64,000 bases of DNA. It comes from a phage. The notes beneath the pieces were generated by a model that worked only from the letters and a program-made list of their open reading frames with translations, did not search any database and was not told the DNA's origin. Position numbers and translations under genes: made by a program. The stretch lies in the sequence record PZ386967.1, one strand, 5' to 3'. Shown here one piece after another: positions 36,493 through 55,404 of this stretch. Position 1 is the first letter of the stretch. Every line of letters starts with the position of its first letter.

Positions 36493-36581
36493 TGGCGGAA
36501 GGTGAAGGATTCGAACCTTCGGGGGCTAAAAGCCCCACTCGATTAGCAGTCGAGTCCCTTAAACCTCTCGGGCAACCTTCC
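36493..36581 (-). tRNA. tRNA-Ser (anticodon GCU)
   Basis: Hand-folded cloverleaf: acceptor GGAAGGT/ACCTTCC, anticodon loop CTGCTAA, long variable arm, T-loop GGTTCGAATCC, encoded CCA. Confidence 0.8.
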
Positions 36582-36801
36582 AATTTGGACGGGCTTCACA
36601 CCCGATTGAGCATTTGATCTGCTGTAGCCCAACTCCCCGCGCTTCTCAGCGCCGATTGGTTAACTGGCGACCAGTGCCTTCTGGTTCGATCTCCTGGAAC
36701 TTTACAGGCTTTGCGCCCGACCATTTCTGGAAGTTGGGGCATCGTTTCCGATGTGGAGTCACCCCATTTTATACACAGCTGGCTGCAACGCTTACTGTGT
36801 T

Positions 36802-36886
36802 TGGTGTGAGTGGATGGATTCGAACCACCGCGCTGTTACGGGGAGATTTACAGTCTCCTGCATTCGACCGCTCTGCCACACTCACA
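36802..36886 (-). tRNA. tRNA-Tyr (anticodon GUA)
   Basis: Acceptor GTGAGTG/CACTCAC, anticodon stem GGAGA/TCTCC with loop CTGTAAA, long variable arm, T-loop TTCGAAT, encoded CCA. Confidence 0.75.
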
Positions 36887-37142
36887 TTTGGTCTGCCGCT
36901 GCGTGCTGGGCCACGCTCGAGGACATCGGCCATCCTTCCTCAGCTAATCCACGCAGCGGTAGATTTGTATCAGAGTGTCCGGTGTAGCAACCCGTGAGGT
37001 GCGCACTACTGTAGCCTCTACACTCTGAATTTGGTGGGCGTTACTATCGTCGTCTTCGGATTCCGTTCGGCTATTGGACAGAGGCTTGGAGCTTGTCGGT
37101 CGCGTACTTTATGCCTATTCACTTTCGTTCACACCCATTGTC

Positions 37143-37218
37143 TGGCGACGATGGCAGGACTTGAACCTGCGACATACGGTTTAACAGACCGCCGTTCTAC
37201 CGACTGAACTACATCGTC
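37143..37218 (-). tRNA. tRNA-Asn (anticodon GUU)
   Basis: Acceptor GACGATG/CATCGTC, anticodon loop CTGTTAA, T-arm CAGG-TTCAAGT-CCTG, encoded CCA. Confidence 0.8.
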
Positions 37219-37389
37219 TTGCAAATCACTATACCATATAAAGTTTATTGAACAAACATTTATTTTACAACAAACTGTATTGGCGGGGTCTGAGGCTTTT
37301 CACCTCACCTGCTGGGTTTGGCCGCCCAGCCGTTCTCTATGAGGATTCACTGTCCGGACAGCTATCCATTAAACTATCGCCCCTCAATA

Positions 37390-37466
37390 TGGTGATCCTG
37401 ATTGGGTTTGAACCAATGACCAATGAATTATGAGTTCACTGCTCTAACCGACTGAGCTACAGGACC
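37390..37466 (-). tRNA. tRNA-Met (anticodon CAU; initiator, elongator or Ile2 not resolved)
   Basis: Acceptor GGTCCTG/CAGGATC, D-arm TAGCTCAGTCGGTTAGAGCA, anticodon loop CTCATAA, T-loop GGTTCAAACCC, encoded CCA. Confidence 0.8.
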
Positions 37467-44243: not shown

Positions 44244-44283
44244 ACTAAATACCCCTAGATGAAACGAACACATTTAGGGGTAT
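44244..44283 (+). promoter_or_regulatory. late-promoter-like motif ACTAAATAC plus 5' leader hairpin
   Basis: CTAAATA core, then inverted repeat ATACCCCTA / TAGGGGTAT whose 3' arm holds the only G-rich SD-like sequence before ATG 44289. Confidence 0.45.
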
Positions 44284-44288
44284 TTGAA

Positions 44289-47200
44289 ATGGCTAATAAA
44301 CCAACACAGCCTGTTTTCCCTCTCGGTCTGGTGGCTGAAGAGCAGTCTACTTTGGCTGGTGTCGTCAACACGGGTACGATTGAGCATGGACCAGATGCTG
44401 TCCTGACTTTACCCGAGGGTAATGCCAGCGCAGGACTCCCGTCTTCCGTTCGCTACAATGCCGACTCCGACGAATTTGAGGGCTTCTATGAAAATGGTGG
44501 ATGGTTGCCGCTGGGTGGCGGTGGTATCCGCTGGGAAGTCCTTCCGCATGCCTCTACGGTAATGCTCACTGAAGGGCGAGGCTATCTCATTAATAATACC
44601 ACAGGGGCATCTACAGTGGTTCTCCCTTCCCCTACGCGTATTGGGGATTCCGTTACTATTTGTGATGCTTATGGGAAATTTGCCACTTACCCATTGACCG
44701 TGTCTCCTTCTGGAAATAATTTGTATGGCTCCACTGAAGACATGGCTATAACAACTGATAACGTATCAGCAACGTTCACTTGGTCTGGACCTGAACAAGG
44801 TTGGATTATTACATCCGGCGTCGGTCTTGGCCAAGGCCGTGTCTACAGTCGTGAAATCTTTACAAAAATTTTGGCGTCTGAAACAAGTACTGTCACTCTC
44901 AATACTCCACCAACAATCGTGGACGTGTATGCTGACGGAAAACGCCTTGCGGAATCCAAATATTCACTAGATGGGAATGTAATCACTTTCAGTCCTTCTT
45001 TGCCAGCCAGCACAGAACTTCAGGTGATTGAATATACTCCTATTCAATTGGGTAATGGCGGTGGTTCTAGTTCTTCTACGATTACTTGGGTCTATAATGG
45101 GGGTTCAGCGATTGGCGGTGAAACCGAAATCACGTTGGACGTCGTTGTTGATGATGTTCCGGCCATTGATATAAACGGAAGTCGTCAGTATAAAAATCTG
45201 GGATTCACATTCGATCCATTAACCAGTAAAATCACTCTGGCGCAAGAACTGGAACCAGAAGATGAAGTTGTTGTAATCATCAATGGAACACCAAACATCT
45301 ATAATCAAATTGATCATACTTTGCGGGAAGTGGCTCGTGTAACCAATGTTAAAGATACAGAGGTCGTTTATTTTAGTGTTGGTGCTGTGCTAAGCGGGTA
45401 TAAAGTTATCTATGATAAAGTAACACAGAGATCATATTTTATTCCAGAGCTACCGACTGGAACCACGGCAGTCAGCCTTAGTTCTTCGGCTGTACTTGTG
45501 CATTCTGCTGGTAGTGTTGATCTGGGCGCATTAGCCGTATCTCGTGAGGAGTATGTGACCTTACCTGGTTCATTCGATACAGGTGTAACTGTTAATACCA
45601 AGAATGAGTTGGTTGTGAGTAACGATATTAAATATCGTTGGGATGGTTCTGTACCCAAAGTAGTCCCTCCAGAATCTACCCCATTGGGTACAGGAGGTGT
45701 TGGTCCAGGGGCATGGCTTGTAGTTGGTGTTGTTGGATTAGAGCAACGTTTAGCCTCCTGGAAAGGTTCTTCTCTTATTGATTCCGGTAGTCTGTCTCTT
45801 TACAAAAAGAGCGGTGTATTCGGTGATGGTGGGAATGTATCCGATAAATATCAGGTTGTTCTACATTCAGATGGGTTCTGGTACAAGTACAATGGGACAC
45901 TACCTGTTAGTTATGGTGCTGCCCCAGACTCTTCTTGGACTAACGTTGGTAAGCTAACAGGGTTTAATGAACACTCACCTGAGAATTTTGGTGCAATCCC
46001 CAATGACCCTAGTTTTGACTGTTTACCTGCTATAAAACTAGCTATAGCCACAGGTACATTAAATCTGAATGGGAATTCTACCTACCACGTAACGGATGAG
46101 GTTGTTATACCTTCTTACTTACGTGGGAATCTAAACGGGGCAACAATTAAAGCAATTGGCTCCGTATGGCCTACGTTAAAAGCTGTTGTACGCGTTAGTA
46201 AATTTCCTGTCGGTACAGCAACAGTGGATGTGGCTAATACAGAGAATCAAGTGCGAGGATTACGCTTAATCGGTAGCTTAAACGTAGACTGTGCAGATAT
46301 TGCATCATATGGTTTTTATGCACGTCTTCTGTGTGCAGAATCTGAGATGGGTAGCATCTATGCATATAATGCTAATAGATATGGCATTGTAATGTTTGCT
46401 TGCTGGTATTTTCAAATGGGCACTCTCCATGCAAACAACTGTGCAAGGGGTATGGCATTAGGTTATTCAACAGAAGGTGAGCAAGGGGATACCTATGTGA
46501 ATGCTACACACTTCCCTCACATTAGTGCATGGGGTACTGATAAGTCTACGGGACTAGGTTATGACCCAATCACGGATGATGCGAGTAAATATACAATAGG
46601 TGCTGGTATTATCTTAGGTCGTGGTTTGTCTACCAGTGTTGGTGTGATTTGCTCTGAGAATACGGCAGGTGCTGGGGTAGTAACAATGGACCCTGCTGCG
46701 TGGGACATTGGGGTCATGTACTGTGAGGGTAATAGTAAAGACTTTACTCAAGAGGGTGAACCCAAGGTGTCATTGCTGTCATCCAAGGCCAACAGTGAAA
46801 GTCATACGCTTACCATCTCCACACTCCACCTTTCCGCAGGTTGTGGCATTTTAACCAGAAGCAATCAAGAGCGTGTGCTAATCAGAAGTCTATATCGCTT
46901 TGATAACGCAAAAACCTTCCACTCTTACTGCACAGCAGACACAGTAGAGGTTGGTAGCAGCAACTACTATGTACTTAACGGGCATAATTACAATGCACCT
47001 GCTGCACTTATTAAGGAACCGCTCAATGTAGACTTTGTGCGTTCAGGGTTGACTTTAAGTGAGTGGACATCTACAGTTATCGGTCATTTTGCTGGTAGTA
47101 CAGCAGAACAACAGCTTTATGTTAAGCTCCCAGCAAGTCCCAGCGGCCTAGATTTACAGATAGATAGTGAGGATGGGACGGAATATATCACTGTAACTGG

Positions 47201-47342
47201 TACAGATTTTAAAGTCTCTCTAACTAAGAAAAGATTGCCTAGTAAACTGTATGAGATAAGGATTGGTGGGGTGTCTACAGTAGCTGTTACCGATTGTTCT
47301 ATTCTAGTCAGAAGTAAAAAAGGTGATTGGTATTACTGGTAG
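44289..47342 (+). CDS. tailspike protein with N-terminal adaptor region and internal conserved anchor module (TSP4-like)
   Basis: 1017 aa from ATG 44289; internal about 150-aa module (VVYFSVGAVLSGYKVIYDK...HSAGSVDLGALAVSREEYVTLPGSFDTGVTVNTKNELVV...) shared with three downstream genes; Asn/Gly-rich C-terminal half consistent with a beta-helix. Confidence 0.65.
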   Translation: MANKPTQPVFPLGLVAEEQSTLAGVVNTGTIEHGPDAVLTLPEGNASAGLPSSVRYNADSDEFEGFYENGGWLPLGGGGIRWEVLPHASTVMLTEGRGYLINNTTGASTVVLPSPTRIGDSVTICDAYGKFATYPLTVSPSGNNLYGSTEDMAITTDNVSATFTWSGPEQGWIITSGVGLGQGRVYSREIFTKILASETSTVTLNTPPTIVDVYADGKRLAESKYSLDGNVITFSPSLPASTELQVIEYTPIQLGNGGGSSSSTITWVYNGGSAIGGETEITLDVVVDDVPAIDINGSRQYKNLGFTFDPLTSKITLAQELEPEDEVVVIINGTPNIYNQIDHTLREVARVTNVKDTEVVYFSVGAVLSGYKVIYDKVTQRSYFIPELPTGTTAVSLSSSAVLVHSAGSVDLGALAVSREEYVTLPGSFDTGVTVNTKNELVVSNDIKYRWDGSVPKVVPPESTPLGTGGVGPGAWLVVGVVGLEQRLASWKGSSLIDSGSLSLYKKSGVFGDGGNVSDKYQVVLHSDGFWYKYNGTLPVSYGAAPDSSWTNVGKLTGFNEHSPENFGAIPNDPSFDCLPAIKLAIATGTLNLNGNSTYHVTDEVVIPSYLRGNLNGATIKAIGSVWPTLKAVVRVSKFPVGTATVDVANTENQVRGLRLIGSLNVDCADIASYGFYARLLCAESEMGSIYAYNANRYGIVMFACWYFQMGTLHANNCARGMALGYSTEGEQGDTYVNATHFPHISAWGTDKSTGLGYDPITDDASKYTIGAGIILGRGLSTSVGVICSENTAGAGVVTMDPAAWDIGVMYCEGNSKDFTQEGEPKVSLLSSKANSESHTLTISTLHLSAGCGILTRSNQERVLIRSLYRFDNAKTFHSYCTADTVEVGSSNYYVLNGHNYNAPAALIKEPLNVDFVRSGLTLSEWTSTVIGHFAGSTAEQQLYVKLPASPSGLDLQIDSEDGTEYITVTGTDFKVSLTKKRLPSKLYEIRIGGVSTVAVTDCSILVRSKKGDWYYW

Positions 47343-47350
47343 TATAATAA

Positions 47351-47380
47351 AAAGCCCCCAATTTTGGGGGCTTTTATTAT
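47351..47380 (+). terminator. rho-independent terminator
   Basis: Hairpin AAAGCCCCC-AATTTT-GGGGGCTTT followed by a T-run. Confidence 0.6.
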
Positions 47381-47414
47381 ATAGAGTTTACTGTTTTCAT
47401 TACCCTGATTGATA
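47374..47414 (+). repeat. about 40-nt intergenic repeat, copy 1
   Basis: TATATAGAGTTTACTGTTTTCATTACCCTGATTGATA; near-identical copy at 55206..55246. Confidence 0.6.
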
Positions 47415-47597
47415 ATGCTGTTGGCTCTCTCGGGTTGTCATCAAACGGGTATAAGAACTTTATAGGTGATATCAATGATGGGTCAGCGTATTTTTATTTC
47501 ACCAACATAGATGGATCAAGAATATCGGGGTCGTCTGTTTATGATGGGTGGGGTGATGTTGGTATACATTTTGAAATGTGTCTGGAATAGGAGTGTC

Positions 47598-47696
47598 AAA
47601 CCCCGCTTTGGCGGGGTTCTTATTATACCTTTGTTCATAAATTTGATTAGTTCAGACTAAATACTCCATATTGGTCATCCTTTATGGGGTATTATC
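47598..47696 (+). repeat. duplicated tailspike upstream cassette, copy 1 (hairpin, late-promoter-like motif, leader hairpin)
   Basis: About 85% identical by eye to 50575..50675; includes GACTAAATAC at 47655-47664 and leader hairpin ATACTCCATA / TATGGGGTAT at 47661-47692. Confidence 0.6.
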
Positions 47697-50126
47697 ATGA
47701 TTTCTCAATTCAATCAACCACGCGGCTCCACTTCCATAGAAGTTAACAAACAATCTATCGCTCGAAATTTCGGTGTCAAAGAAGACGAAGTCGTTTATTT
47801 CACTGCTGGTATTGATCTCAGTGGATTTAAAGTAATTTATAATGAGTCTACCCAACGGGCTTATTCTCTTCCTTCAGGTATTGTTTCAGGAACGACTGCG
47901 ATAAGTCTGGATAAAAGAGCTATCCTCACTCATTCAGCGGGTTCTGTTGATCTTGGGGAATTAGCAGTAAGCCGCGAAGAATACGTAACCTTACCTGGTT
48001 CATTTGATACTGGTGTAACTGTTAATACTAAGAATGAATTAGTTGTCTTTACCGATGGTAAGTATCGCTGGGATGGGGCACTGCCTAAAGAAGTGCCTGC
48101 TGGTTCAACCCCTACATCAACCGGTGGTGTTGGAACAGGTGCATGGGTTAGTGTTGGTGATGCGAGTTTGAGGTCAATAGCTCAATACAGAGCCAATACC
48201 ATTGAAGATTTAAAATCATTGCCATTTGCGGTTGGAGATATTGTTAATGTCGCTGGGTATTATGATGTTTTTGATGGGGCACAGCATTACCGAGTGATTA
48301 GTGGTACAGATGATGGAACAGGGGTTCAGCTCAATAATGGTTTGTGGGCAAATATTATCATTAATGGCGATGCTTGTGTAGATTGGTTTGGCGCTAAAGG
48401 TGATGGTGTTGCAGATGACTGGTGGGCAATCAATAAAGCTATTAACGCCTCGCTCTCTACCGATTATCAGGGTGGTTGGTGGGAGACGTCAAGTAGAAAC
48501 CCTAAATTTAAAGTTAGACTTAGTAGACGCTCTTACAGAATCACTAAACAGATTTTACTACCCCCTTACATAGAGTTTTATGGTATGGGTTCGCGCTGGT
48601 ATTTTTCGGGTGATAATAATTCTCGCTTAATCCCTGATTTTGATAATCCGTTGCAATTCGCTGTGAAATCTGCTAGCTATATTGTTGAAACCGGTGAACT
48701 AGCACCTGAGGGGTGGTATTCTGGGGTGGTTTGGGTTGACCCAAAAAAACTAACGACTTGTCATGGTATTAAAACTTATGGATATAGCATCGAACCAACA
48801 AAACAAATTTTAGGCGGTATAAGACTGATAGCGAGTCCAATTTCTCATGTATACGATATATTCATAACAAATGTTGATTTTGGAGTTTTACTGAATTGTT
48901 CATGGGTGAGTAAGGTTGACGTTAAAACTCATCATAATAAATGCGGGGTTATGTCTAGTCATGATGGTAATAACACTCACGTGGATGGTTATTTTACAGG
49001 GACAGAAATCAAACCGCTTGATGGTAATCCTTACCTCAACCCAATAGAGTCTTTAGACTCTACAACAGGGCTCCAAGACCAATCTATATCTGACCCAGAC
49101 AGTAAAATAGGTGTGATTTTTTATTGGTCACAGGGGTCAACAAGTACGAATATGACGTGTGAGGGTAACACTATTTCGTTGGCTGTGGCTAAGGGTGGTG
49201 CTGATGTAAGGTGTTTATACTCAGAACGTAATTCAGATTGTACATTTACTGGGTACAGTTCACTAGTTACAATTGGTGAAATAACTGGCATTGGTGACGG
49301 TGGAACTTTTGAGCTTGGTGTAAATAATACTATTTCGTTAGACAAAGACACTCAGTATGGTGTCGCTAAACGATTTAAGTACGTGAGCGAGTGGGGTAAT
49401 AAGCTGTTTATGCCCTCTAGCTGGAAAGAATACACCAAAGGTTGTTTAGTTGAAGGGTTTGATTATAGCGAAATTTTTGTAGATGCGATAAATGGAGATG
49501 ACACCAATGTTGGCTCCAGTCTTCACCCTGTGAAAACTTTGGAGAGAGCTCTAACGCTTGTGAATTCAGTGTATACTACATCTGACTTGCTAAGCTCAGT
49601 GCCGAGGGATAGAGTAATAAAGTTAGTAGGCTCAGCAACATACTACCCAGACGGACAGCATAGGTTCGTGGGCGGCTCGTTAAAAATTACAAAAGCTGAT
49701 AACTCACGACCGACTGTTAATTTATCAAAACCAATCCGATTTAACGACACATCCCTAGTATTTGAGGAAGTAAATTTAGTGCGACCAACAGATGACCACG
49801 GGAATAATGAGAATGGCGCAATTTTCCTTGAGGATGGGTGTAATGAAGTCAGATTGAAAAACTGCGATCTAAGTCTACAAAAATTCAGCTTCTTATATCC
49901 TACTTGGGGCTTTGCTGGAATATGTACCTTGGTGTTAAACGGGGTTAGTGTTACTGGTGATTCAACAACAAGAATGATACAAACAGCTGATGGATATCAT
50001 GATTTGCACTTGTTTAATGTAATTAGCTACGAGACAACTTACACTGGAGGAATAGAGTCAAGACCAGATAAAGGCTATGATATACCAGCAGATAGACGTG
50101 GTCATATATTGGGTGTATCAATATAA
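47697..50126 (+). CDS. tailspike protein with N-terminal anchor module (TSP1-like)
   Basis: 809 aa; the conserved module sits at the N-terminus; a 50-nt stretch (48114-48163) is identical to 51597-51646; Asn/Gly-rich C-terminal region. Confidence 0.65.
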   Translation: MISQFNQPRGSTSIEVNKQSIARNFGVKEDEVVYFTAGIDLSGFKVIYNESTQRAYSLPSGIVSGTTAISLDKRAILTHSAGSVDLGELAVSREEYVTLPGSFDTGVTVNTKNELVVFTDGKYRWDGALPKEVPAGSTPTSTGGVGTGAWVSVGDASLRSIAQYRANTIEDLKSLPFAVGDIVNVAGYYDVFDGAQHYRVISGTDDGTGVQLNNGLWANIIINGDACVDWFGAKGDGVADDWWAINKAINASLSTDYQGGWWETSSRNPKFKVRLSRRSYRITKQILLPPYIEFYGMGSRWYFSGDNNSRLIPDFDNPLQFAVKSASYIVETGELAPEGWYSGVVWVDPKKLTTCHGIKTYGYSIEPTKQILGGIRLIASPISHVYDIFITNVDFGVLLNCSWVSKVDVKTHHNKCGVMSSHDGNNTHVDGYFTGTEIKPLDGNPYLNPIESLDSTTGLQDQSISDPDSKIGVIFYWSQGSTSTNMTCEGNTISLAVAKGGADVRCLYSERNSDCTFTGYSSLVTIGEITGIGDGGTFELGVNNTISLDKDTQYGVAKRFKYVSEWGNKLFMPSSWKEYTKGCLVEGFDYSEIFVDAINGDDTNVGSSLHPVKTLERALTLVNSVYTTSDLLSSVPRDRVIKLVGSATYYPDGQHRFVGGSLKITKADNSRPTVNLSKPIRFNDTSLVFEEVNLVRPTDDHGNNENGAIFLEDGCNEVRLKNCDLSLQKFSFLYPTWGFAGICTLVLNGVSVTGDSTTRMIQTADGYHDLHLFNVISYETTYTGGIESRPDKGYDIPADRRGHILGVSI

Positions 50127-50574
50127 ATAATTGATATTATGCTTCATGGTGATTGTGGGTGATTCACCCACGATTACTTTTAGGTACTACAGTTGATAAT
50201 TCAGATTGATACATTGGATTGGCAGGTGCGTGTAATACTGCACTTGAATTTTGATACATAAATCCGGCACCCTCCCTCACCCTCAACGCGCCCAATTGCC
50301 CCCATAGGAGGCTCATTACCTCCTTGTGGGCTTTGTTGTTTTTGTGGCTGCTGTTGCTGACTACATTCTATGTATGGATGTATCTCATCATACTAAGCAT
50401 TATCTAAGAGCCATCCTATGATACGACCCCATTGGGATTCCTAACTTCACAACTACGGTAATATTATGAATTAATCAGGTGAACTGCTCCTAGTCAGACT
50501 GGAGGAACGATTGAAGACTCTGTTTGATAATCAGGCAAGGGATAGATAGGATCGTGGTTTTGGAGAGTAAAATC

Positions 50575-50675
50575 AAAACCCCTCTTCGGCGGGTTCTTGT
50601 TATACCTTTGTTCATAAATTTATTAGTTCAGACTAAATACCCCATATTGGCAAATCCTCTATGGGGTATCTTCAA
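50575..50675 (+). repeat. duplicated tailspike upstream cassette, copy 2
   Basis: Contains GACTAAATAC at 50631-50640 and perfect 10-bp leader hairpin ATACCCCATA / TATGGGGTAT at 50637-50669; the ORF-track ATG at 50661 lies inside the hairpin arm. Confidence 0.6.
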
Positions 50676-53180
50676 ATGACCAGAAACGTCGAGAGCATCT
50701 TTGGAGCGGTCGTAACAGCTCCGCACCAGATTCCATACACTTACACAGCAACGGGTGGAGAGAAGTTTATCTCCCTCCCTTTCTACCCTGTCACTGGTAT
50801 AGTCACAATCAACGGTGGCATGCAAGTTCCGTTAGACAACTTTGAAATCGATGGAAATACGTTGAATCTCGGACGCGCATTATCCAAAGGTGACGTTGTG
50901 TTCTGTCTGTTTGATAAGATTCTGTCTCCAGAAGATTATAAAACCGGGGTTCGAATCTATAAGTTTCAGGCTATAGGAGGTGAAACCGAGTTCACTCCTG
51001 ATTACACATATTATGGAGTCCAATCTCTTTATATCGGTGGTGAGTACAAAACACCCGAAATTGAATATTCCTATGACAGCACGACAGGGAAAGTGTCTTT
51101 ACAAACTGCGCTGACTGCAGGCGTTTGGGTAGTCGCTGAAATGTCTGTTAAACAACCGAATATCAGTCCGTTGTTTGACCGAAGTATTCAAGAAATCGCT
51201 CGTGCAACTAACGTTAAGGACAGTGAAGTAATTCTTAGCACTGACACTACGCAATTATTGAATGGTAAAAAGATTGTCTACTCTGTTAGTGAGCAGAAGT
51301 CATATGGGTTACCTTCATTACCCTCTAACATATACATCTCATCCGTTAGTAATGGGCAGTTAACGTACAATCCAGGTAATATTACTGTTACTTTGTTACC
51401 TACTCATCAAGAGTCGAATACCAGAGAATTGTGGAGACGTTTACTTGCAGAAGCAGGTTTATCTCTCGTTGCTGGTAGCTTTGAAGAAGGTGCAACAGTT
51501 AATAGTGAAACGGATGCTGTTTGGCACATCGCTGGTGGTCAGTGCTATACGTGGGAGGGTGCACTACCTAAAGTTGTCCCCGCTGACTCAACCACTACAT
51601 CAACCGGTGGTGTTGGAACAGGTGCATGGGTTAGTGTTGGTGATGCTTCATTGAAGTCAGAATTGGCTAAACCTACAGGAGCAGGTTTTTCAGGTTTTGA
51701 TAAGTCAATTGATTACGAAACTGGTACTGTTGGCAATGCGCTTAAGAAAATTATAAATGTCAACCCGGATATGTATCCATCATTACAGGATGCGATTGAT
51801 GCTGCGGCAGCTTTAACAGGTTTAGAACATGCACCAAGTAGTGCTGCTAACCATCCTGACTGGCTACAACCTAACACTGTAAGCAAAGTTATCAGGCTGA
51901 ATGGGAAGAAATATCCTATCAGTACGACACTACACATTCACGGAGATGTTAGCATTGATGCTGGTTTCGGTGGGGTATACCTGACAGATGACTTCATAGC
52001 AGACTCATCTGGTTATGCTGTAAAGTGTGATAAAGGTACAGGTAATCAATACGCTGGGCACATTAGCAATCTTTTAATTGATGCCCGTGCAAAAACTGTT
52101 AATGGATTTAAAATATCTGATGGTTATGCCAACAAGTTAGATGGCATTTACGTAGCCAATATTGATGGTCATGGCATCCATATTGCTGGCGGTATGGGTG
52201 TGCACCTATTGAAGTTTTATGCTGTTGGTGTATTAAAACCAACTAATCCACTCAGCACAGCCCACATTGTTGAAGGTAGCGATCATCAGGTTAGTATGGG
52301 TGAAGGTCGTTATTTCCGATTTGGTACCTGGGTTCGTGGTGGTGGCAATAACAGAATTAGTAAGGTGCACAACTGGGGCATGTATGACGATACAGTCACT
52401 GACCAGAACTCAAGGATGAAATGCTGCTTTGTTGTACAGAACTCAATAAACAATTCCTTCAATCAATGTTTTGCAGATTCTCCATCAAAATGGGACTACG
52501 CGAAAGCTAATTTAGATCCTGTAGATGGTTATATTAACGGCGGGATTGGCTTTTTTATTGATGGTGGAGCCACCGGTAATACGTTCTCTCAATGCCAGAC
52601 GTTTGTGAATATGAATGCGTTTAATGACGCAGGGCTATCTTCATATACGGCATCACTAATGCCATTCGCCGTTGGTAGTATCAACTGTTCATTCATTGAG
52701 TGTGAAAACTCAAACTCACCAGCATGGGTGGCAAGGCTGATAACTCATATTTACTCTGCGGACCAGACATTTACTAACATACTTGCAGCTAAGAATTTTG
52801 TTGGTATAGAGTATGATATGGTTTGCAATAGTACAATTTTCAGGAAAAATGTTGGAGTTCCTGTATTGGTAAGAAATCCAAAGTTCGAGACGCCAACAGC
52901 AAGTTATGCGCCTGACTTTTCAGACGCATCTTACATCGCAGCTACAGTTACAGGAGATGTAACAATAACTCCAGCAGTATTAACAAATACACTAATTGGT
53001 TATGTTGAGGTTCTTTTGGCTGTCTATTCAACAACATCTAAAACAATAACATTTGGTGCAAATGTTAAATTAGCAAGCAATACCCCATCTTTGACAGCAG
53101 CTGGAACACAAGTTTTTAGGTTGTCAACAACTGATGAAGGAGCAACCTGGTTTTGTAAGTTCGAGAGTGCTTACTCGTAA
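50676..53180 (+). CDS. tailspike protein with N-terminal adaptor region and internal anchor module (TSP2-like)
   Basis: Start moved to ATG 50676; conserved module at about residues 170-330, including TSTGGVGTGAWVSVGDASL identical to the 47697 gene. Confidence 0.6.
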   Translation: MTRNVESIFGAVVTAPHQIPYTYTATGGEKFISLPFYPVTGIVTINGGMQVPLDNFEIDGNTLNLGRALSKGDVVFCLFDKILSPEDYKTGVRIYKFQAIGGETEFTPDYTYYGVQSLYIGGEYKTPEIEYSYDSTTGKVSLQTALTAGVWVVAEMSVKQPNISPLFDRSIQEIARATNVKDSEVILSTDTTQLLNGKKIVYSVSEQKSYGLPSLPSNIYISSVSNGQLTYNPGNITVTLLPTHQESNTRELWRRLLAEAGLSLVAGSFEEGATVNSETDAVWHIAGGQCYTWEGALPKVVPADSTTTSTGGVGTGAWVSVGDASLKSELAKPTGAGFSGFDKSIDYETGTVGNALKKIINVNPDMYPSLQDAIDAAAALTGLEHAPSSAANHPDWLQPNTVSKVIRLNGKKYPISTTLHIHGDVSIDAGFGGVYLTDDFIADSSGYAVKCDKGTGNQYAGHISNLLIDARAKTVNGFKISDGYANKLDGIYVANIDGHGIHIAGGMGVHLLKFYAVGVLKPTNPLSTAHIVEGSDHQVSMGEGRYFRFGTWVRGGGNNRISKVHNWGMYDDTVTDQNSRMKCCFVVQNSINNSFNQCFADSPSKWDYAKANLDPVDGYINGGIGFFIDGGATGNTFSQCQTFVNMNAFNDAGLSSYTASLMPFAVGSINCSFIECENSNSPAWVARLITHIYSADQTFTNILAAKNFVGIEYDMVCNSTIFRKNVGVPVLVRNPKFETPTASYAPDFSDASYIAATVTGDVTITPAVLTNTLIGYVEVLLAVYSTTSKTITFGANVKLASNTPSLTAAGTQVFRLSTTDEGATWFCKFESAYS

Positions 53181-53184
53181 AACT

Positions 53185-53210
53185 AACCCCGCTTCGGCGG
53201 GGTTTCTTAG
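53185..53210 (+). terminator. terminator-like hairpin
   Basis: Hairpin AACCCCGC-TTCG-GCGGGGTT followed by TTCTTAG. Confidence 0.45.
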
Positions 53211-53228
53211 AAAAACAAAGAGGTCGTT

Positions 53229-55145
53229 ATGAACGAAATGTTCTCACAAGGTGGTAAAGGCTCTACTGGTATTCTTACCAATAAGCAAGCCATTGCCCGT
53301 AAGTTTGGTGTTAAACAGAATGAGGTAGTCTACTTTGCTGTAGGTGTAGACTTAGGTGGTTACAAAGTAATTTATGATAAGGCTACTCAGCGTGCCTATT
53401 CCTTGCCTGCTGACATTGGTTCAGGGGTGACTGCTGTAAGTCTTGGTACTAATGCCGTACTTGTACATTCAGCTGGTTCCGTAGATCTTGGGGAATTAGC
53501 CGTATCTCGTGAAGAATACGTTACATTGTCTGGGTCGTTTGACAATGGTGCTACACTTAATGTTAAAAATGAATTGCTTACCCATACAACAGGTAAGTAT
53601 CGCTGGGATGGTGAGTTACCTAAAACCGTTTCTTCTGGCTCAACTCCTGAAAGTGCTGGAGGTACTGGGTTAGACAAGTGGGTTAGTGTTGGTGATGCAG
53701 CCTTGAGAATCAATCTTGCATCTGATGATGGCGCTGGTCTGGTCGGATTTAAGTCACCTCTGGCCAACTCCATTAAGCGAACACTACATGATAAAAATAA
53801 AGACCTGGTGTCAGTCAAGGACTTCGGGGCTGTTGGCGACGGTGTGACCGATGATACCGCCGCGTTTCAGGCAGCAATAGATTCGAAAAAGAGTTTATAC
53901 ATACCGGATGGTATTTATCTTATAAGCTCTACTTTAATCATAACTGCCACTGATAGTCTATGTATTGTTGGTAATAGTTTTGGACATGTTAATGACCAAA
54001 CAACAGGTTCAGTAATTAAGTTTACCGGGTTAGCGTCACCCGCCATTCGGGTTCAAGGTGGTGCGATAGGAGCTAAGATTTCTGGACTTTTCTTGGATAT
54101 TCAGGACTCATCGTCTGATGGTTTTGATTTCGGAGGGGCTTGGTACCTAAAACTTCAAGATTGCGTTGTCAGAAACGCCCGGTACGGTGTTTATTTACAT
54201 TACGACGCCCCAGACTATTTTTCCGGGGTGGCTGAGCTAACTTCATGCTATTTCGCTAAATGTGCAAATGGTGTAAAAACGTCAAAAGTAGATATCAACG
54301 TAGTTAAAGTTGATAATTGTACTTTCTTTGATGGTGTTAACGGTGTTCTTATCGGAGACTCAGGTACTGCAAGTAGTGTACGAAATTTCATAGTCAGAGA
54401 CTCTCTATTTGAAGCAAACACGGGCTATGACGTAGGTGTTGTCGCCGGGGGTGCACAGCAGTTACTGGTAGATGGTAACTACTTTGAAGAGAATACTGCT
54501 TCTTCTTTAGCCAGGGTATATGTTGCAGATGATAGTCACTCACCGCGTTCTTCTTCTGTTTCAATAACCAACAACACGTTTAGCAAAGATACGACAGGCG
54601 ATCTTATTTTCCTGTCCGGTATTTCCGGTGTTCTTGTTAAACAAAACTGGTCAGCATTTGGGGGTATAGGTTTTGTAAGGGCTATTAATATCGACAATTA
54701 TGAGATAGATAGATGCTCTACCGTATCTGGAGCAACAGCCTGTAATGTTGTTATAGATAACGTCTTACAAGTACCTGACACTTCTGTTAATAAGATTTAT
54801 ATTAACAAGGCCCAAGAATACGCATTTATTGGGTCTACCGTCGCAAAAAGGTCGAGTGCATGTACACGGGCAATGATCAATTTTAATGGAATTTCGGGGT
54901 CGTCAGTGTATGCGGATGGAGCAACTGTAACTAAAACCGGGACCGGTAAATATACCGTCAACCTATCTAATACTATGCCCTCCTCTGCTTATGCTGTTTT
55001 ATGCAGTGTTGGCAATACCACTAGCGGAGGGAAATTAGTAATTAATGTCGTAAGTACATCCCCTGACTCTTTTAACTTAGAAGTTTTTGACCTTTCTGGA
55101 TCGTATCAAGATTCAGGATACATATCTGCCGCAGTTGTTATGTAA
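53229..55145 (+). CDS. tailspike protein with N-terminal anchor module and beta-helix-like C-terminus (TSP3-like)
   Basis: 638 aa; N-terminal module about 65% identical to that of the 47697 gene; C-terminal repeats typical of right-handed beta-helix (pectate-lyase-like) folds. Confidence 0.65.
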   Translation: MNEMFSQGGKGSTGILTNKQAIARKFGVKQNEVVYFAVGVDLGGYKVIYDKATQRAYSLPADIGSGVTAVSLGTNAVLVHSAGSVDLGELAVSREEYVTLSGSFDNGATLNVKNELLTHTTGKYRWDGELPKTVSSGSTPESAGGTGLDKWVSVGDAALRINLASDDGAGLVGFKSPLANSIKRTLHDKNKDLVSVKDFGAVGDGVTDDTAAFQAAIDSKKSLYIPDGIYLISSTLIITATDSLCIVGNSFGHVNDQTTGSVIKFTGLASPAIRVQGGAIGAKISGLFLDIQDSSSDGFDFGGAWYLKLQDCVVRNARYGVYLHYDAPDYFSGVAELTSCYFAKCANGVKTSKVDINVVKVDNCTFFDGVNGVLIGDSGTASSVRNFIVRDSLFEANTGYDVGVVAGGAQQLLVDGNYFEENTASSLARVYVADDSHSPRSSSVSITNNTFSKDTTGDLIFLSGISGVLVKQNWSAFGGIGFVRAINIDNYEIDRCSTVSGATACNVVIDNVLQVPDTSVNKIYINKAQEYAFIGSTVAKRSSACTRAMINFNGISGSSVYADGATVTKTGTGKYTVNLSNTMPSSAYAVLCSVGNTTSGGKLVINVVSTSPDSFNLEVFDLSGSYQDSGYISAAVVM

Positions 55146-55162
55146 GTAATAATCACTTAAAA

Positions 55163-55191
55163 ACAACCCCACTTCTATGGGGTTGTTTTTA
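55163..55191 (+). terminator. rho-independent terminator
   Basis: Hairpin AACAACCCCA-CTTCTA-TGGGGTTGTT followed by TTTTT. Confidence 0.55.
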
Positions 55192-55205: not shown

Positions 55206-55246
55206 TTTTTATATAGAGTTTACTGTTTGCATTACCCTAATCGATA
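55206..55246 (+). repeat. about 40-nt intergenic repeat, copy 2
   Basis: TATATAGAGTTTACTGTTTGCATTACCCTAATCGATA; about 36 of 39 positions identical to 47374..47414. Confidence 0.6.
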
Positions 55247-55404
55247 CAGCAGTTAAGGTAATAGTCTGACCTGATATATTAAACATACCTAATTGAATAC
55301 CATCTACCATGAATGGCAGAGGTCTCGAATCCATGACCATAACCACAGAAAGATAATCAAAGCCCCTTCGGGCTTATTTCTTTCTATTCCTCGGTTGGTT
55401 GTAT

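What the first reader, a model, noticed from the sequence alone, without database searches (positions are those of the whole stretch)
44289..55145. Four tailspike genes share one anchor module, including a 50-nt identical DNA stretch
The genes at 44289, 47697, 50676 and 53229 all contain a module of about 150 aa (...VVYF..G..L.G.KVIYD..TQR.Y.LP...SG.TA.SL...A.L.HSAGSVDLG.LAVSREEYVTL.GSFD.G.T.N.KNEL....KYRWDG.LPK.V...STP...GG.G...W...). It sits at the N-terminus in two genes and after an adaptor region in the other two, followed by unrelated Asn/Gly-rich C-terminal halves. At DNA level, 48114-48163 and 51597-51646 are identical over 50 nt, and 47950-48030 versus 45500-45600 look about 85% identical by eye. 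These shared blocks mark the anchor-to-receptor-binding junction and are ready substrates for recombination that would swap receptor specificity. The layout resembles the branched four-tailspike complex of ViI/CBA120-like phages.
Basis: partly seen in the sequence, partly recalled or inferred. Interest (0 to 1): 0.6.

Follow-up and report, generated by a model that had tools for sequence, protein, structure and literature searches.

The report
Four phage tailspikes sharing one head module
This is the four-tailspike host-recognition gene cluster of an Agtrevirus (Ackermannviridae) phage, whose shared "head" module and short conserved DNA stretches are the already published joints at which such phages swap receptor-binding domains, so it is a clear new example of known biology rather than a discovery.

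Summary
The window is an Agtrevirus-type Ackermannviridae phage, about 97% identical in DNA to A221, fGh-Ecl02 and YX22. The four genes are TSP4, TSP3, TSP2 and TSP1 of a CBA120-type branched tailspike complex. The shared module is the D1-D2 (TD1-TD2) head; D2 is Pfam PF18668. TSP2 has a divergent D1 and a clear D2. The identical run is 52 nt (48112-48163 = 51595-51646).

Relatives are strongly mosaic at exactly these joints. The TSP2 D1-D2-RBD block, plus the intergenic spacer and the 5' end of tsp1 (51218-53428), is 95% identical to the gp66-like tailspike region of an N4-like, Gamaleyavirus-type contig. The TSP4 cassette matches that contig's second tailspike. The TSP3 cassette matches Phapecoctavirus ukendt. 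The TSP2 receptor-binding domain sits on TSP4 in YX22, CECAV_050 and ps4. Breakpoints fall in IARxxNVK, GTTAVSL and WVSVGDA.

All of this is published in principle (Sørensen 2021 and 2023, Pas 2023, Sørensen 2024). The only new point is that TSP2 here carries a D2 domain, whereas canonical TSP2 has a single D1. This is a new member of a known kind, of low to moderate interest.

The parts
44289..47342 (+). tsp4, 1017 aa (alternative upstream ATG at 44259). Anchor domain plus XD1-XD3 cover about 44289-45302. The D1-D2 head covers about 45330-45740: GTTAVSL at 45459-45479, PF18668 at 45534-45728. The receptor-binding cassette runs to the stop codon.
   Evidence: PDB 7rej_A E 9.8e-197 over ORF residues 11-348, and 5w6h/4oj5 over the head. 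Pfam. Motif coordinates.
47697..50126 (+). tsp3, 809 aa. D1-D2 head at 47697-48163. Receptor-binding domain at 48164-50126, with a pectate-lyase-like N-terminal part.
   Evidence: PDB 5w6f/6nw9 residues 1-166, E 1e-84. Pfam PF18668 and PF12708.
50676..53180 (+). tsp2, 834 aa (alternative ATG at 50661). XD2-XD3 at 50676-51194. gp66-type D1 from IARATNVK (51195). D2/PF18668 at about 51431-51646. Receptor-binding domain at 51647-53180.
   Evidence: PDB 6w4q residues 1-245, E 1.5e-127. PF18668 E 1.1e-20. Residues 1-180 are 97-100% identical to AV101 TSP2, and residues 181-834 are about 97-100% identical to the N4-like phage protein P0001.
53229..55145 (+). tsp1, 638 aa. D1-D2 head at 53229-53698 (GVTAVSL at 53424-53444). 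Receptor-binding domain at 53699-55145.
   Evidence: PDB 4oj5 residues 1-209, E 2.3e-86. Pfam. 97.6% nt identity to YX22 tsp1.
48112..48163 (+). The 52-nt run identical to 51595-51646. It encodes ...TSTGGVGTGAWVSVGDA at the end of D2. Its last 20 nt (48144-48163, TGGGTTAGTGTTGGTGATGC) are the near-invariant cross-family core.
51595..51646 (+). The tsp2 copy of the 52-nt identical run.
   Evidence: The close relative L010 differs from it at 2 positions.
45639..45746 (+). tsp4 copy of the 108-nt D2-end repeat family (WDG.LPK ... AW..VG). The other copies are at 48069-48176, 51552-51659 and 53604-53711.
   Evidence: Family D2. The family start coincides with the left limit of similarity to ukendt (48069), YX22 tsp4 (51552) and dw-ec (53604).
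51218..53428 (+). Block shared with the N4-like phage contig L010 (its gp66-like gene, spacer and the 5' end of its gp63.1-like gene). Identity is 95.2% overall and 98.7% over 51218-51960. The left joint lies at 51198-51217 (IARATNVK). The right joint lies at 53429-53444 (GVTAVSL of tsp1).
45570..47422 (+). tsp4 cassette (D2, receptor-binding domain and 80 nt of 3' flank), about 92% identical to the second (gp63.1-like) tailspike gene of L010. From 45922 it is also 90% identical to the Kayfunavirus EFA-1 tail-fibre gene. The crossover zone is 45504-45570.
48069..50339 (+). tsp3 cassette (D2 end, receptor-binding domain and 213 nt beyond the stop codon), 95.2% identical to Phapecoctavirus ukendt gene 238 and its 3' flank.
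47599..47618 (+). Terminator-like hairpin AACCCCGCTTTGGCGGGGTT downstream of tsp4. Homologous copies lie at 50577-50596, 53185-53204 and 55165-55184, one after each tsp gene.
   Evidence: Family D3. Two of the four pass the terminator scan. Sequences shown. They occupy the position of the published 20-nt 'motif three' (PMC10408124).
50573..50674 (+). Conserved terminator-plus-leader block upstream of tsp2, 84-91% identical to 47596-47697 upstream of tsp3. It is also conserved in Kuttervirus and Agtrevirus relatives, so it could serve as a 3' homology arm.
   Evidence: Families D5, D6 and D13. Matches in S117, ps4, CECAV_050, YX22, A221 and AV101.

Best explanation
The region is the tailspike gene cluster (tsp4-tsp3-tsp2-tsp1) of an Agtrevirus-type Ackermannviridae phage. 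It encodes a CBA120-like branched receptor-binding complex.

**Assembly (inferred by homology to CBA120).** TSP4 attaches to the baseplate through its anchor domain and carries XD1-XD3. TSP2 docks on TSP4 through XD2. TSP1 and TSP3 dock through their N-terminal D1 heads on XD3 surfaces.

**The module.** The repeated roughly 150-aa module is the paralogous D1-D2 (TD1-TD2) head that precedes each receptor-binding beta-helix domain.

**How exchange works (inferred).** The head contains short stretches that are conserved at the DNA level across several phage families. These lie at the D1 start (IARxxNVK), the D1 end (GTTAVSL) and the D2 end (W.G.LPK...AWVSVGDA, with a near-invariant 20-nt core). 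Each gene is followed by a conserved terminator and leader block. Co-infecting phages could therefore exchange D2/RBD cassettes by homologous recombination using these stretches as arms, which re-targets individual spikes to new O- or K-antigens without disturbing complex assembly.

**What is shown here.** Domain identities, DNA repeats, and mosaic breakpoints that coincide with the motifs.

**What is inferred.** That homologous recombination at these motifs produced the mosaics, and that the complex assembles as in CBA120.

**TSP2.** In this phage TSP2 is itself a product of such exchange. It keeps its native XD2-XD3 but has a D1-D2-RBD of the Gamaleyavirus gp66 type.
For: **Domain identity.**
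- PDB matches to CBA120 TSP4-N, TSP3, TSP2 and TSP1.
- PF18668 in all four genes.

**Backbone and synteny.**
- Agtrevirus backbone at about 97%.
- Gene order matches YX22, S117, CECAV_050, ps4, A221 and AV101.

**Repeats.**
- The 108-nt family, the 20-nt hairpin family and the leader blocks.
- The 52-nt exact run, against at most 16 nt in shuffles.

**Mosaicism.**
- No phage record covers 80% or more of the cluster.
- Each receptor-binding domain has a different nearest source: Kayfunavirus or N4-like, Phapecoctavirus, the TSP4 of YX22/CECAV_050/ps4 or Justusliebigvirus, and YX22 TSP1 or Phapecoctavirus dw-ec.

**Breakpoints from three-way informative sites.**
- 51198-51217 lies in IARATNVK, with 114 scaffold-type sites on one side and 229 donor-type sites on the other.
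- 53429-53444 lies in GVTAVSL.
- 45504-45570 lies just after GTTAVSL.
- 48104-48163 and 51631-51643 lie at the D2-end core.

**Nucleotide-level conservation of the core.**
- Third-codon-position conservation is 0.85 in the core, against 0.67 upstream and 0.53 downstream, in 24 sequences selected without using the core.
- The exact 20-mer occurs in 32 IMG/VR stretches on contigs of 39-161 kb.

**Literature.**
- D1 of TSP1 binds TSP4 XD3, and the TSP3 head is needed for assembly (PMC8825819).
- Conserved motifs have been proposed as recombination sites (PMC8432352; PMC10408124; PMC10791037).
- Engineered, Cas9-selected tsp exchange, and an unplanned tsp4/tsp5 recombination in S117 (PMC11414711).
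Against: - No experiment on this phage. Assembly of a TSP2 that carries an extra D2 domain is untested.
- The direction and number of transfer events cannot be fixed from a handful of relatives.
- The tsp4 crossover is a fuzzy zone of about 140 nt with interleaved informative sites, not a clean joint.
- Conservation of the DNA core could partly reflect codon preference plus strong protein constraint.
- I could not compare my motifs base by base with the published logos, because figures are not held.
Confidence: 0.87

Rival explanations
1. The 52-nt identity between tsp2 and tsp3 comes from intragenomic gene conversion (concerted evolution of paralogous D2 ends within this genome). On this view it is not two independently imported cassettes that each carried the conserved motif. 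This rival concerns only the identical run and is compatible with the main explanation.
For: Within the 52 nt, the two window copies are closer to each other than either is to its nearest relative. L010, otherwise 98.7% identical to tsp2, differs at 2 positions. ukendt, otherwise 95% identical to tsp3, differs at 5 clustered positions where tsp3 matches tsp2. The exact 52-mer occurs nowhere else in the 42 loci held at that point or in IMG/VR.
Against: The true donors are not sampled, and a donor with the same 52-mer could exist. Eleven further variants of the L010 protein family exist (P0002-P0012), but their DNA was not examined. Identity stops sharply at the D2/RBD junction, as it does in every inter-phage comparison, so the pattern is also what shared descent of a conserved motif predicts.
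Confidence: 0.3
2. The shared module is conserved only because the protein fold is constrained. The DNA similarity is a by-product and plays no part in recombination, and the receptor-binding domains diverged in place.
For: The module is a structural domain with conserved residues. Most pairwise DNA identity within the genome is only 68-77%.
Against: The receptor-binding domains are unrelated to each other. Yet each is 89-98% identical in DNA to genes in other phage families, with similarity switching on and off inside the module. The same RBD sits on TSP2 here and on TSP4 in three isolates. Synonymous sites in the core are unusually conserved.
Confidence: 0.03
3. The mosaic is an assembly chimera. 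A mixed sample containing an Agtrevirus and an N4-like phage was mis-joined through the shared repeats.
For: The 51218-51960 stretch is 98.7% identical to an N4-like contig. Repeats of 50-100 nt can mislead short-read assemblers. The exact proteins are absent from a collection of 15 billion proteins.
Against: Each foreign block is flanked on both sides by Agtrevirus sequence and is in frame, which would need several paired switches. No block is 100% identical to any source. All four ORFs, spacers and terminators are intact and syntenic. Isolate genomes (YX22, CECAV_050, ps4) show the same kind of mosaic with the same RBD.
Confidence: 0.03

Closest known systems
CBA120 (Kuttervirus) TSP1-TSP4 branched tailspike complex (Plattner 2019; Chao 2022, PMC8825819)
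   Same: The four-gene set is the same, read here as tsp4-tsp3-tsp2-tsp1. TSP4 has AD+XD1-3, TSP2 has XD2-XD3, and TSP1, TSP3 and TSP4 have D1-D2 heads. PDB matches run from E 1e-84 to 1e-196. GTTAVSL starts at aa 391 in TSP4, and at aa 65 in TSP3 and aa 66 in TSP1; the literature gives 391 for TSP4 and 65 for TSP1.
   Different: The genus differs (Agtrevirus backbone). All four receptor-binding domains differ. TSP2 here has D1 plus a PF18668 D2, whereas CBA120 TSP2 has a 'single D1 head domain'. TSP2 of YX22, S117, A221 and CECAV_050 give no PF18668 hit.
Agtrevirus AV101 and relatives (Sørensen 2023, PMC10791037)
   Same: Same genus-level backbone. The N-terminal parts of tsp4, tsp3 and tsp2 are 91-93% identical in DNA. 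[quoted passage not shown]
   Different: None of the four receptor-binding domains is shared with AV101. Here the conserved stretch is also present in tsp2.
Conserved DNA motifs flanking RBDs across lytic phage genera (Pas et al. 2023, Virol J 20:174, PMC10408124)
   Same: [quoted passage not shown] The same genera are involved: Kayfuna-, Justusliebig-, Gamaleya- and Ackermannviridae phages.
   Different: They report the upstream motif in all Kuttervirus RBPs except CBA120 RBP2, and only in the second RBP of Gamaleyaviruses. Here it is in TSP2 and in the gp66-like first RBP of the N4-like contig L010. I did not check sequence identity to their logos.
Phage G7C (Gamaleyavirus) gp66/gp63.1 two-tailspike branch
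   Same: The gp66-like protein P0001 has gp10-like domains followed by D1-D2-RBD, and it is followed by a gp63.1-like spike that starts with D1-D2. These scaffolds are homologous to TSP2 and to TSP1/3/4 respectively. Both RBDs of the N4-like contig L010 occur in the window.
   Different: A podovirus with two spikes rather than a myovirus with four. The N-terminal virion attachment differs. The window keeps the Agtrevirus XD2-XD3 (residues 1-180 are 97-100% identical to AV101).
T-even tail-fibre adhesin swapping at conserved motifs (Tétart 1998, cited in PMC11414711)
   Same: Short conserved sequence motifs that bracket the hypervariable specificity segments are proposed as recombination joints.
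   Different: The proteins differ (gp37/gp38 fibres, not tailspikes), and so do the motifs.

Membership tests
Ackermannviridae CBA120-type branched four-tailspike complex | TSP4 with an N-terminal baseplate anchor domain followed by gp10-like XD1, XD2 and XD3 | tested here: met
   7rej_A/7rfo_A (CBA120 TSP4-N) align to ORF residues 11-348 with E 9.8e-197.
Ackermannviridae CBA120-type branched four-tailspike complex | TSP2 beginning with XD2-XD3 | tested here: met
   6w4q_A residues 1-245 align to ORF residues 6-249, E 1.5e-127. Residues 1-180 are 97-100% identical to AV101 TSP2.
Ackermannviridae CBA120-type branched four-tailspike complex | TSP1 and TSP3 begin directly with the D1-D2 head that docks on XD3 | tested here: met
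   4oj5_A 1-209 (E 2.3e-86) and 5w6f_A 1-166 (E 1e-84) align from residue 1. The docking role is taken from PMC8825819 and was not tested here.
Ackermannviridae CBA120-type branched four-tailspike complex | Canonical TSP2 head consists of a single D1 domain, with no D2/PF18668 | tested here: not met
   Window TSP2 has PF18668 with E 1.1e-20. TSP2 of YX22, S117, A221 and CECAV_050 have none. 9 of 77 TSP2-architecture homologues carry a D2-like segment. This is a variation within the family, not an exclusion.
Ackermannviridae CBA120-type branched four-tailspike complex | Cluster lies between baseplate-wedge genes and the VriC gene on an Ackermannviridae backbone | tested here: met
   Window 20000-44200 is 96-97% identical to Agtrevirus genomes. 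The flanks are collinear with YX22, S117, CECAV_050, A221 and AV101.
Ackermannviridae CBA120-type branched four-tailspike complex | The four proteins physically assemble into one branched complex on the baseplate | not testable with these tools
   Needs analytical ultracentrifugation, cryo-EM or electron microscopy of virions.
Pfam PF18668 Tail_spike_N (D2/TD2 domain) | Score above the Pfam gathering threshold (25 bits) | tested here: met
   79.6, 92.4, 74.0 and 72.4 bits for TSP4, TSP3, TSP2 and TSP1.
Cross-genus RBD recombination motifs (Pas 2023; Sørensen 2021) | [quoted passage not shown] | tested here: met
   The 108-nt family has four copies. The 20-nt core is near invariant in relatives from four families and occurs in 32 IMG/VR stretches.
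Cross-genus RBD recombination motifs (Pas 2023; Sørensen 2021) | A 20-nt terminator-like motif downstream of each RBD gene | tested here: met
   Hairpin family at 47599, 50577, 53185 and 55165. Two of the four pass the terminator scan. Sequences.
Cross-genus RBD recombination motifs (Pas 2023; Sørensen 2021) | Similarity to heterologous phages begins or ends at the motifs (mosaic breakpoints) | tested here: met
   Breakpoints at 51198-51217, 53429-53444, 45504-45570, 48104-48163 and 51631-51643, and at 53604, all coincide with IARxxNVK, GTTAVSL or the D2 end.
Cross-genus RBD recombination motifs (Pas 2023; Sørensen 2021) | Base-by-base agreement with the published motif logos | not tested
   The logos are in figures and supplements that are not held. 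Only position, length and genera were compared.

The most novel reading that the evidence does not exclude
This genome would record a recent two-cassette exchange between an Agtrevirus and an N4-like Gamaleyavirus-type podophage. The donor-type block runs from the first motif of D1 in tsp2, through the RBD and spacer, to the GTTAVSL motif of tsp1. The second tailspike of the same podophage type appears split between the 5' end of tsp1 and the 3' end of tsp4 at the same motif. The exchange gave TSP2 a D2 domain carrying the universal junction motif. TSP2 is the one position reported to lack that motif and to stay out of RBD swapping. All four positions of the complex would then be interchangeable, and the same RBD already sits on TSP4 in other isolates.
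Probability: 0.5. Interest if true: 0.4.

Novelty: new member of a known kind. Interest (0 to 1): 0.25.

Why it matters
Tailspike cassettes decide which O- or K-antigen types a phage can infect. The rules of natural cassette exchange therefore guide host-range prediction and the engineering of diagnostic and therapeutic phages.

This window adds no new principle, but it is a clean natural example.

- Breakpoints in all four genes fall on three short motifs.
- The exchange partners span four other phage groups: Schitoviridae, Autographiviridae, two genera of Stephanstirmvirinae, and Kuttervirus within the same family.
- The TSP2 position, which published analyses treat as an exception, can acquire the D2 junction and carry an RBD otherwise seen on TSP4.

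This is useful for people designing chimeric TSP2 spikes. The natural joint at IARxxNVK keeps XD2-XD3 intact.

Tried and rejected
1. **Relic of a displaced RBD.** I suspected that the 51-aa ORF at 47435-47590, which has a short similarity to the 3' end of tsp1 (family D9), was such a relic. I dropped this. 47506-47598 is conserved intergenic sequence also present upstream of AV101 tsp3, and tblastx found nothing else. The stretch 47442-47505 remains unmatched.

2. **Exact 52-mer elsewhere.** I searched for it to decide between gene conversion and shared descent. It is absent from the 42 loci fetched up to that point and from IMG/VR. The nearest copy is L010 with 2 mismatches. The question stays open.

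3. **Exact protein look-up.** None of the four proteins is in the collection, so the source genome could not be named.

4. **YX22 tsp4 as donor of the TSP2 cassette.** I first read it this way, because blastn aligns from 51552. The site-by-site comparison shows that YX22 similarity really starts at 51631-51643. The D1-D2 part is of the gp66 type instead.

5. **Structure prediction.** Not run. Crystal structures of close homologues already cover every N-terminal domain, so a model would add nothing to the question asked. The folds of the TSP4 and TSP2 receptor-binding domains, which have no Pfam or PDB sequence hit, therefore remain unverified.

6. **Assembly chimera.** Considered and judged unlikely (see rival explanations).

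Full report
**1. The observation**

Four long ORFs lie head to tail on the + strand: 44259/44289-47342, 47697-50126, 50661/50676-53180 and 53229-55145.

- Three of them share a module of about 150 aa at 54-58% identity.
- The gene at 50676 is only 36% identical over the module. It shares only the first motif (IARxxNVK) and the second half (GSFE...WEGALPK...GGVGTGAWVSVGDA).
- The claimed identical DNA stretch is real and slightly longer than stated: 52 nt, 48112-48163 = 51595-51646. Codon-shuffled controls never exceeded 16 nt.
- The stretch judged '85% by eye' is 81.5% identical. Elsewhere the modules are 68-77% identical in DNA.
- The C-terminal halves are unrelated to one another (blastp E >= 0.004) and contain about 16% Asn+Gly.

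**2. What the genes are**

The backbone upstream (20000-44200) is 96-97% identical to the Agtrevirus-type phages A221, fGh-Ecl02, vB_CECAV_050 and YX22. The window is therefore from an Aglimvirinae (Ackermannviridae) phage. None of the four proteins occurs as an exact sequence in the 15-billion-protein collection.

Sequence searches against solved structures assign each gene.

| Gene | Best solved match | E-value |
|---|---|---|
| 44289 = TSP4 | CBA120 TSP4-N, anchor + XD1-XD3 (7rej), ORF residues 11-348 | 9.8e-197 |
| 47697 = TSP3 | 5w6f residues 1-166 | 1e-84 |
| 50676 = TSP2 | 6w4q residues 1-245 (XD2-XD3-D1) | 1.5e-127 |
| 53229 = TSP1 | 4oj5 residues 1-209 | 2.3e-86 |

- Gene order and flanks (gp6-like wedge genes upstream, VriC downstream) match S117, YX22, CECAV_050, ps4, A221 and AV101.
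- The shared module is the D1-D2 (TD1-TD2) 'head'. D2 is Pfam PF18668, which all four proteins match above threshold.

Chao et al. (PMC8825819) report the following for CBA120.

- D1 of the TSP1 head binds XD3 of TSP4.
- The TSP3 head is needed to join the TSP2:TSP4 complex.
- TSP2 binds through XD2.
- The TSP4 head is dispensable for partner binding.

So 'anchor module' is accurate for TSP1 and TSP3. In TSP4 and TSP2 the same module is a neck between the real anchor domains (AD/XD) and the receptor-binding domain (RBD).

**3.

No phage record covers 80% or more of the cluster. Each RBD has a different nearest relative.

- **TSP4.** The RBD is 90% identical in DNA to the tail-fibre gene of Kayfunavirus EFA-1 and TM1.
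- **TSP3.** The RBD is 95.7% identical to gene 238 of Phapecoctavirus ukendt. The match runs from 48069 to 50339, which is 213 nt beyond the stop codon.
- **TSP2.** The RBD is 96-97% identical to the RBD carried on TSP4 of the Agtrevirus-type phages YX22 and CECAV_050 and of Kuttervirus ps4. It also matches the tailspike of Justusliebigvirus BME3.
- **TSP1.** The gene is 97.6% identical to YX22 tsp1 (its RBD 98.3%). From 53604 onward it is 89% identical to Phapecoctavirus dw-ec.

A protein search with TSP2 found 968-aa proteins that cover 98% of it. Residues 1-180 of the window protein are 97-100% identical to AV101 TSP2. Residues 181-834 are about 97-100% identical to P0001.

P0001 lies on a 71-kb contig that carries N4 gp1 and gp2 genes and a SU10-type portal. 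It is followed by a second PF18668 tailspike. Its N-terminus matches the solved 'tail fiber protein' 9d80 with E 2e-175. The most similar isolate DNA over this stretch is Gamaleyavirus U1G.

At the DNA level:

- Window 51218-53428 is 95.2% identical to this contig, and 98.7% identical over 51218-51960. The block spans D1, D2, the RBD, the terminator and spacer, and the first 200 nt of tsp1.
- Window 45570-47422 (the tsp4 D2, RBD and 3' flank) is about 92% identical to the contig's second tailspike gene.

That second gene therefore equals the 5' end of window tsp1 plus the 3' end of window tsp4, joined at the GTTAVSL position.

**4. Where the joints fall**

Three-way informative-site maps, compared with the motif coordinates, give these positions.

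| Joint | Position | Motif |
|---|---|---|
| tsp2, left | 51198-51217 | inside IARATNVK (51195-51218); 114 consecutive scaffold-type sites, then 229 donor-type sites with one exception |
| right end of the same block | 53429-53444 | inside GVTAVSL of tsp1 (53424-53444) |
| tsp4 | fuzzy zone 45504-45570 | just after GTTAVSL (45459-45479) |
| tsp3 | 48104-48163 | D2 end |
| YX22 tsp4-type RBD joining window tsp2 | 51631-51643 | inside the AWVSVG core |
| dw-ec similarity to tsp1 begins | 53604 | WDGELPK |

The 108-nt repeat family found blindly (45639, 48069, 51552, 53604) starts at the same codon at which three of these heterologous similarities begin.

Its last 20 nt (TGGGTTAGTGTTGGTGATGC) are nearly invariant across copies from Ackermannviridae, Stephanstirmvirinae and the N4-like contig.

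- Third-codon positions are more conserved in the core (0.85) than upstream (0.67) or downstream (0.53). This was measured in a set selected without using the core.
- The exact 20-mer occurs in 32 IMG/VR stretches, on contigs of 39-53 kb, about 72 kb and 157-161 kb.

Downstream of every tsp gene lies a homologous GC-rich hairpin: 47599, 50577, 53185 and 55165. Upstream of tsp3 and tsp2 there is a roughly 100-nt conserved leader that is shared with Kuttervirus and Agtrevirus relatives. These are plausible 3' homology arms. In the L010 block, the D1 of the next gene served as the right arm.

**5. Mechanism**

*Shown here:* paralogous D1-D2 heads, conserved DNA stretches, and mosaic breakpoints that coincide with those stretches in all four genes.

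*Inferred:* homologous recombination between co-infecting phages, using these stretches as arms, moves D2/RBD or D1-D2-RBD cassettes between spike positions and between phage families. The XD/AD assembly domains are left untouched.

Sørensen et al. 2024 provide experimental precedent (PMC11414711). They exchanged tsp genes by plasmid-templated, Cas9-selected recombination. They also observed an unplanned recombination between tsp4 and a synthetic tsp5 in phage S117.

**6. Comparison with what is known**

- Sørensen 2021 (PMC8432352): the GTTAVSL motif at aa 65 and 391 in Kuttervirus TSP1/3/4, RBD swapping among TSP1, TSP3 and TSP4, and a TSP2 TD1 that is not similar to the others.
- Pas 2023 (PMC10408124): 44-nt and 95-nt motifs at the anchor end and a 20-nt terminator motif downstream. 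They are conserved across Kayfuna-, Kaguna-, Nouzilly-, Justusliebig-, Gamaleya- and Kutterviruses, 'except CBA120 RBP2', and occur only in the second RBP of Gamaleyaviruses.

The one departure here is TSP2.

- CBA120 TSP2 has a 'single D1 head domain'.
- TSP2 of YX22, S117, A221 and CECAV_050 give no PF18668 hit.
- The window TSP2 has D1+D2 with the junction motif.
- This is uncommon but not unique. 9 of 77 TSP2-architecture homologues in the hit list have a D2-like segment, and only one of those (P0041) is a close Agtrevirus-type relative.

**7. The 52-nt run**

It lies in the most conserved part of the D2 end. Its tsp2 copy came with the gp66-type cassette (L010 differs at 2 of the 52 positions). 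Its tsp3 copy is ukendt-like, except for a 10-nt patch in which it matches tsp2 rather than ukendt.

The exact 52-mer is absent from IMG/VR and from the 42 loci fetched up to that point. Local gene conversion between tsp2 and tsp3 is therefore possible. It cannot be separated from unsampled donors.

**8. Verdict**

The window is a new, unusually clear member of a known kind, with a TSP2 chimera as a modest extension. Interest is 0.25.

Noticed in passing
L006:10553-10861 (BME3) and L004:11528-11836 (ukendt_239): Directly downstream of their tailspike genes, both Stephanstirmvirinae phages keep an ORF of about 103 aa. In BME3 this ORF is collinear with the first ~280 nt (the D1 fragment) of window tsp1, within a 92.5%-identical match that runs on from the RBD (window 51678-53512). 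It looks like a footprint of a cassette imported together with its right-hand homology arm from a phage with a branched tailspike complex. ukendt_239 is annotated as similar to a Kuttervirus GG32 tail-fibre protein.
   Followed up: partly
window 50127-50339 and 50302-50359: The first 213 nt after the tsp3 stop codon are 96% identical to the 3' flank of ukendt gene 238, so the imported block extends past the gene. A 58-nt piece (50302-50359) also matches six IMG/VR contigs of 40-47 kb at 87-93%, which suggests another conserved element downstream of RBD genes.
   Followed up: partly
window 50368-50556, 47349-47422 and 55206-55312: Pieces of the sequence that follows the second tailspike gene of the N4-like contig L010 (13044-13378) are scattered after tsp4, tsp3 and tsp1 in the window. 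They also occur in AV101, A221 and YX22. Conserved 3' flanks are therefore shared between Agtrevirus and Gamaleyavirus-type phages.
   Followed up: partly
window 47442-47505: About 64 nt between the L010/AV101-like flank of tsp4 and the AV101-like tsp3 leader match nothing in the phage collection or the fetched loci. The overlapping 51-aa ORF (47435-47590) has only a 24-nt similarity to the 3' end of tsp1 (family D9).
   Followed up: partly
L003 (MT350292.1, 'Enterococcus phage EFA-1'): This record is flagged UNVERIFIED_ORG and classified as a Kayfunavirus. Its tail-fibre RBD is 90% identical to the window's TSP4 RBD and close to that of Escherichia phage TM1. The Enterococcus host label is probably wrong.
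   Followed up: no
window 36493-37466 (- strand): A cluster of four tRNA genes (Ser-GCT, Tyr-GTA, Asn-GTT, Met-CAT). Similar tRNA clusters are annotated upstream of the baseplate-wedge genes in YX22 and CECAV_050.
   Followed up: no
window 20000-44200: Relatives annotate the DNA polymerase in two parts with a homing endonuclease nearby. Coverage of this stretch by the closest genomes is 87-93% in 6-10 pieces, so there are insertions and deletions relative to all known Agtrevirus genomes.
   Followed up: no
window 44259 versus 44289, and 50661 versus 50676: TSP4 and TSP2 each have two in-frame ATG codons. Relatives are annotated inconsistently: the CECAV_050 start corresponds to 44259 and the YX22 start to 44289. 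The CBA120 crystal constructs begin at the downstream ATG.
   Followed up: partly
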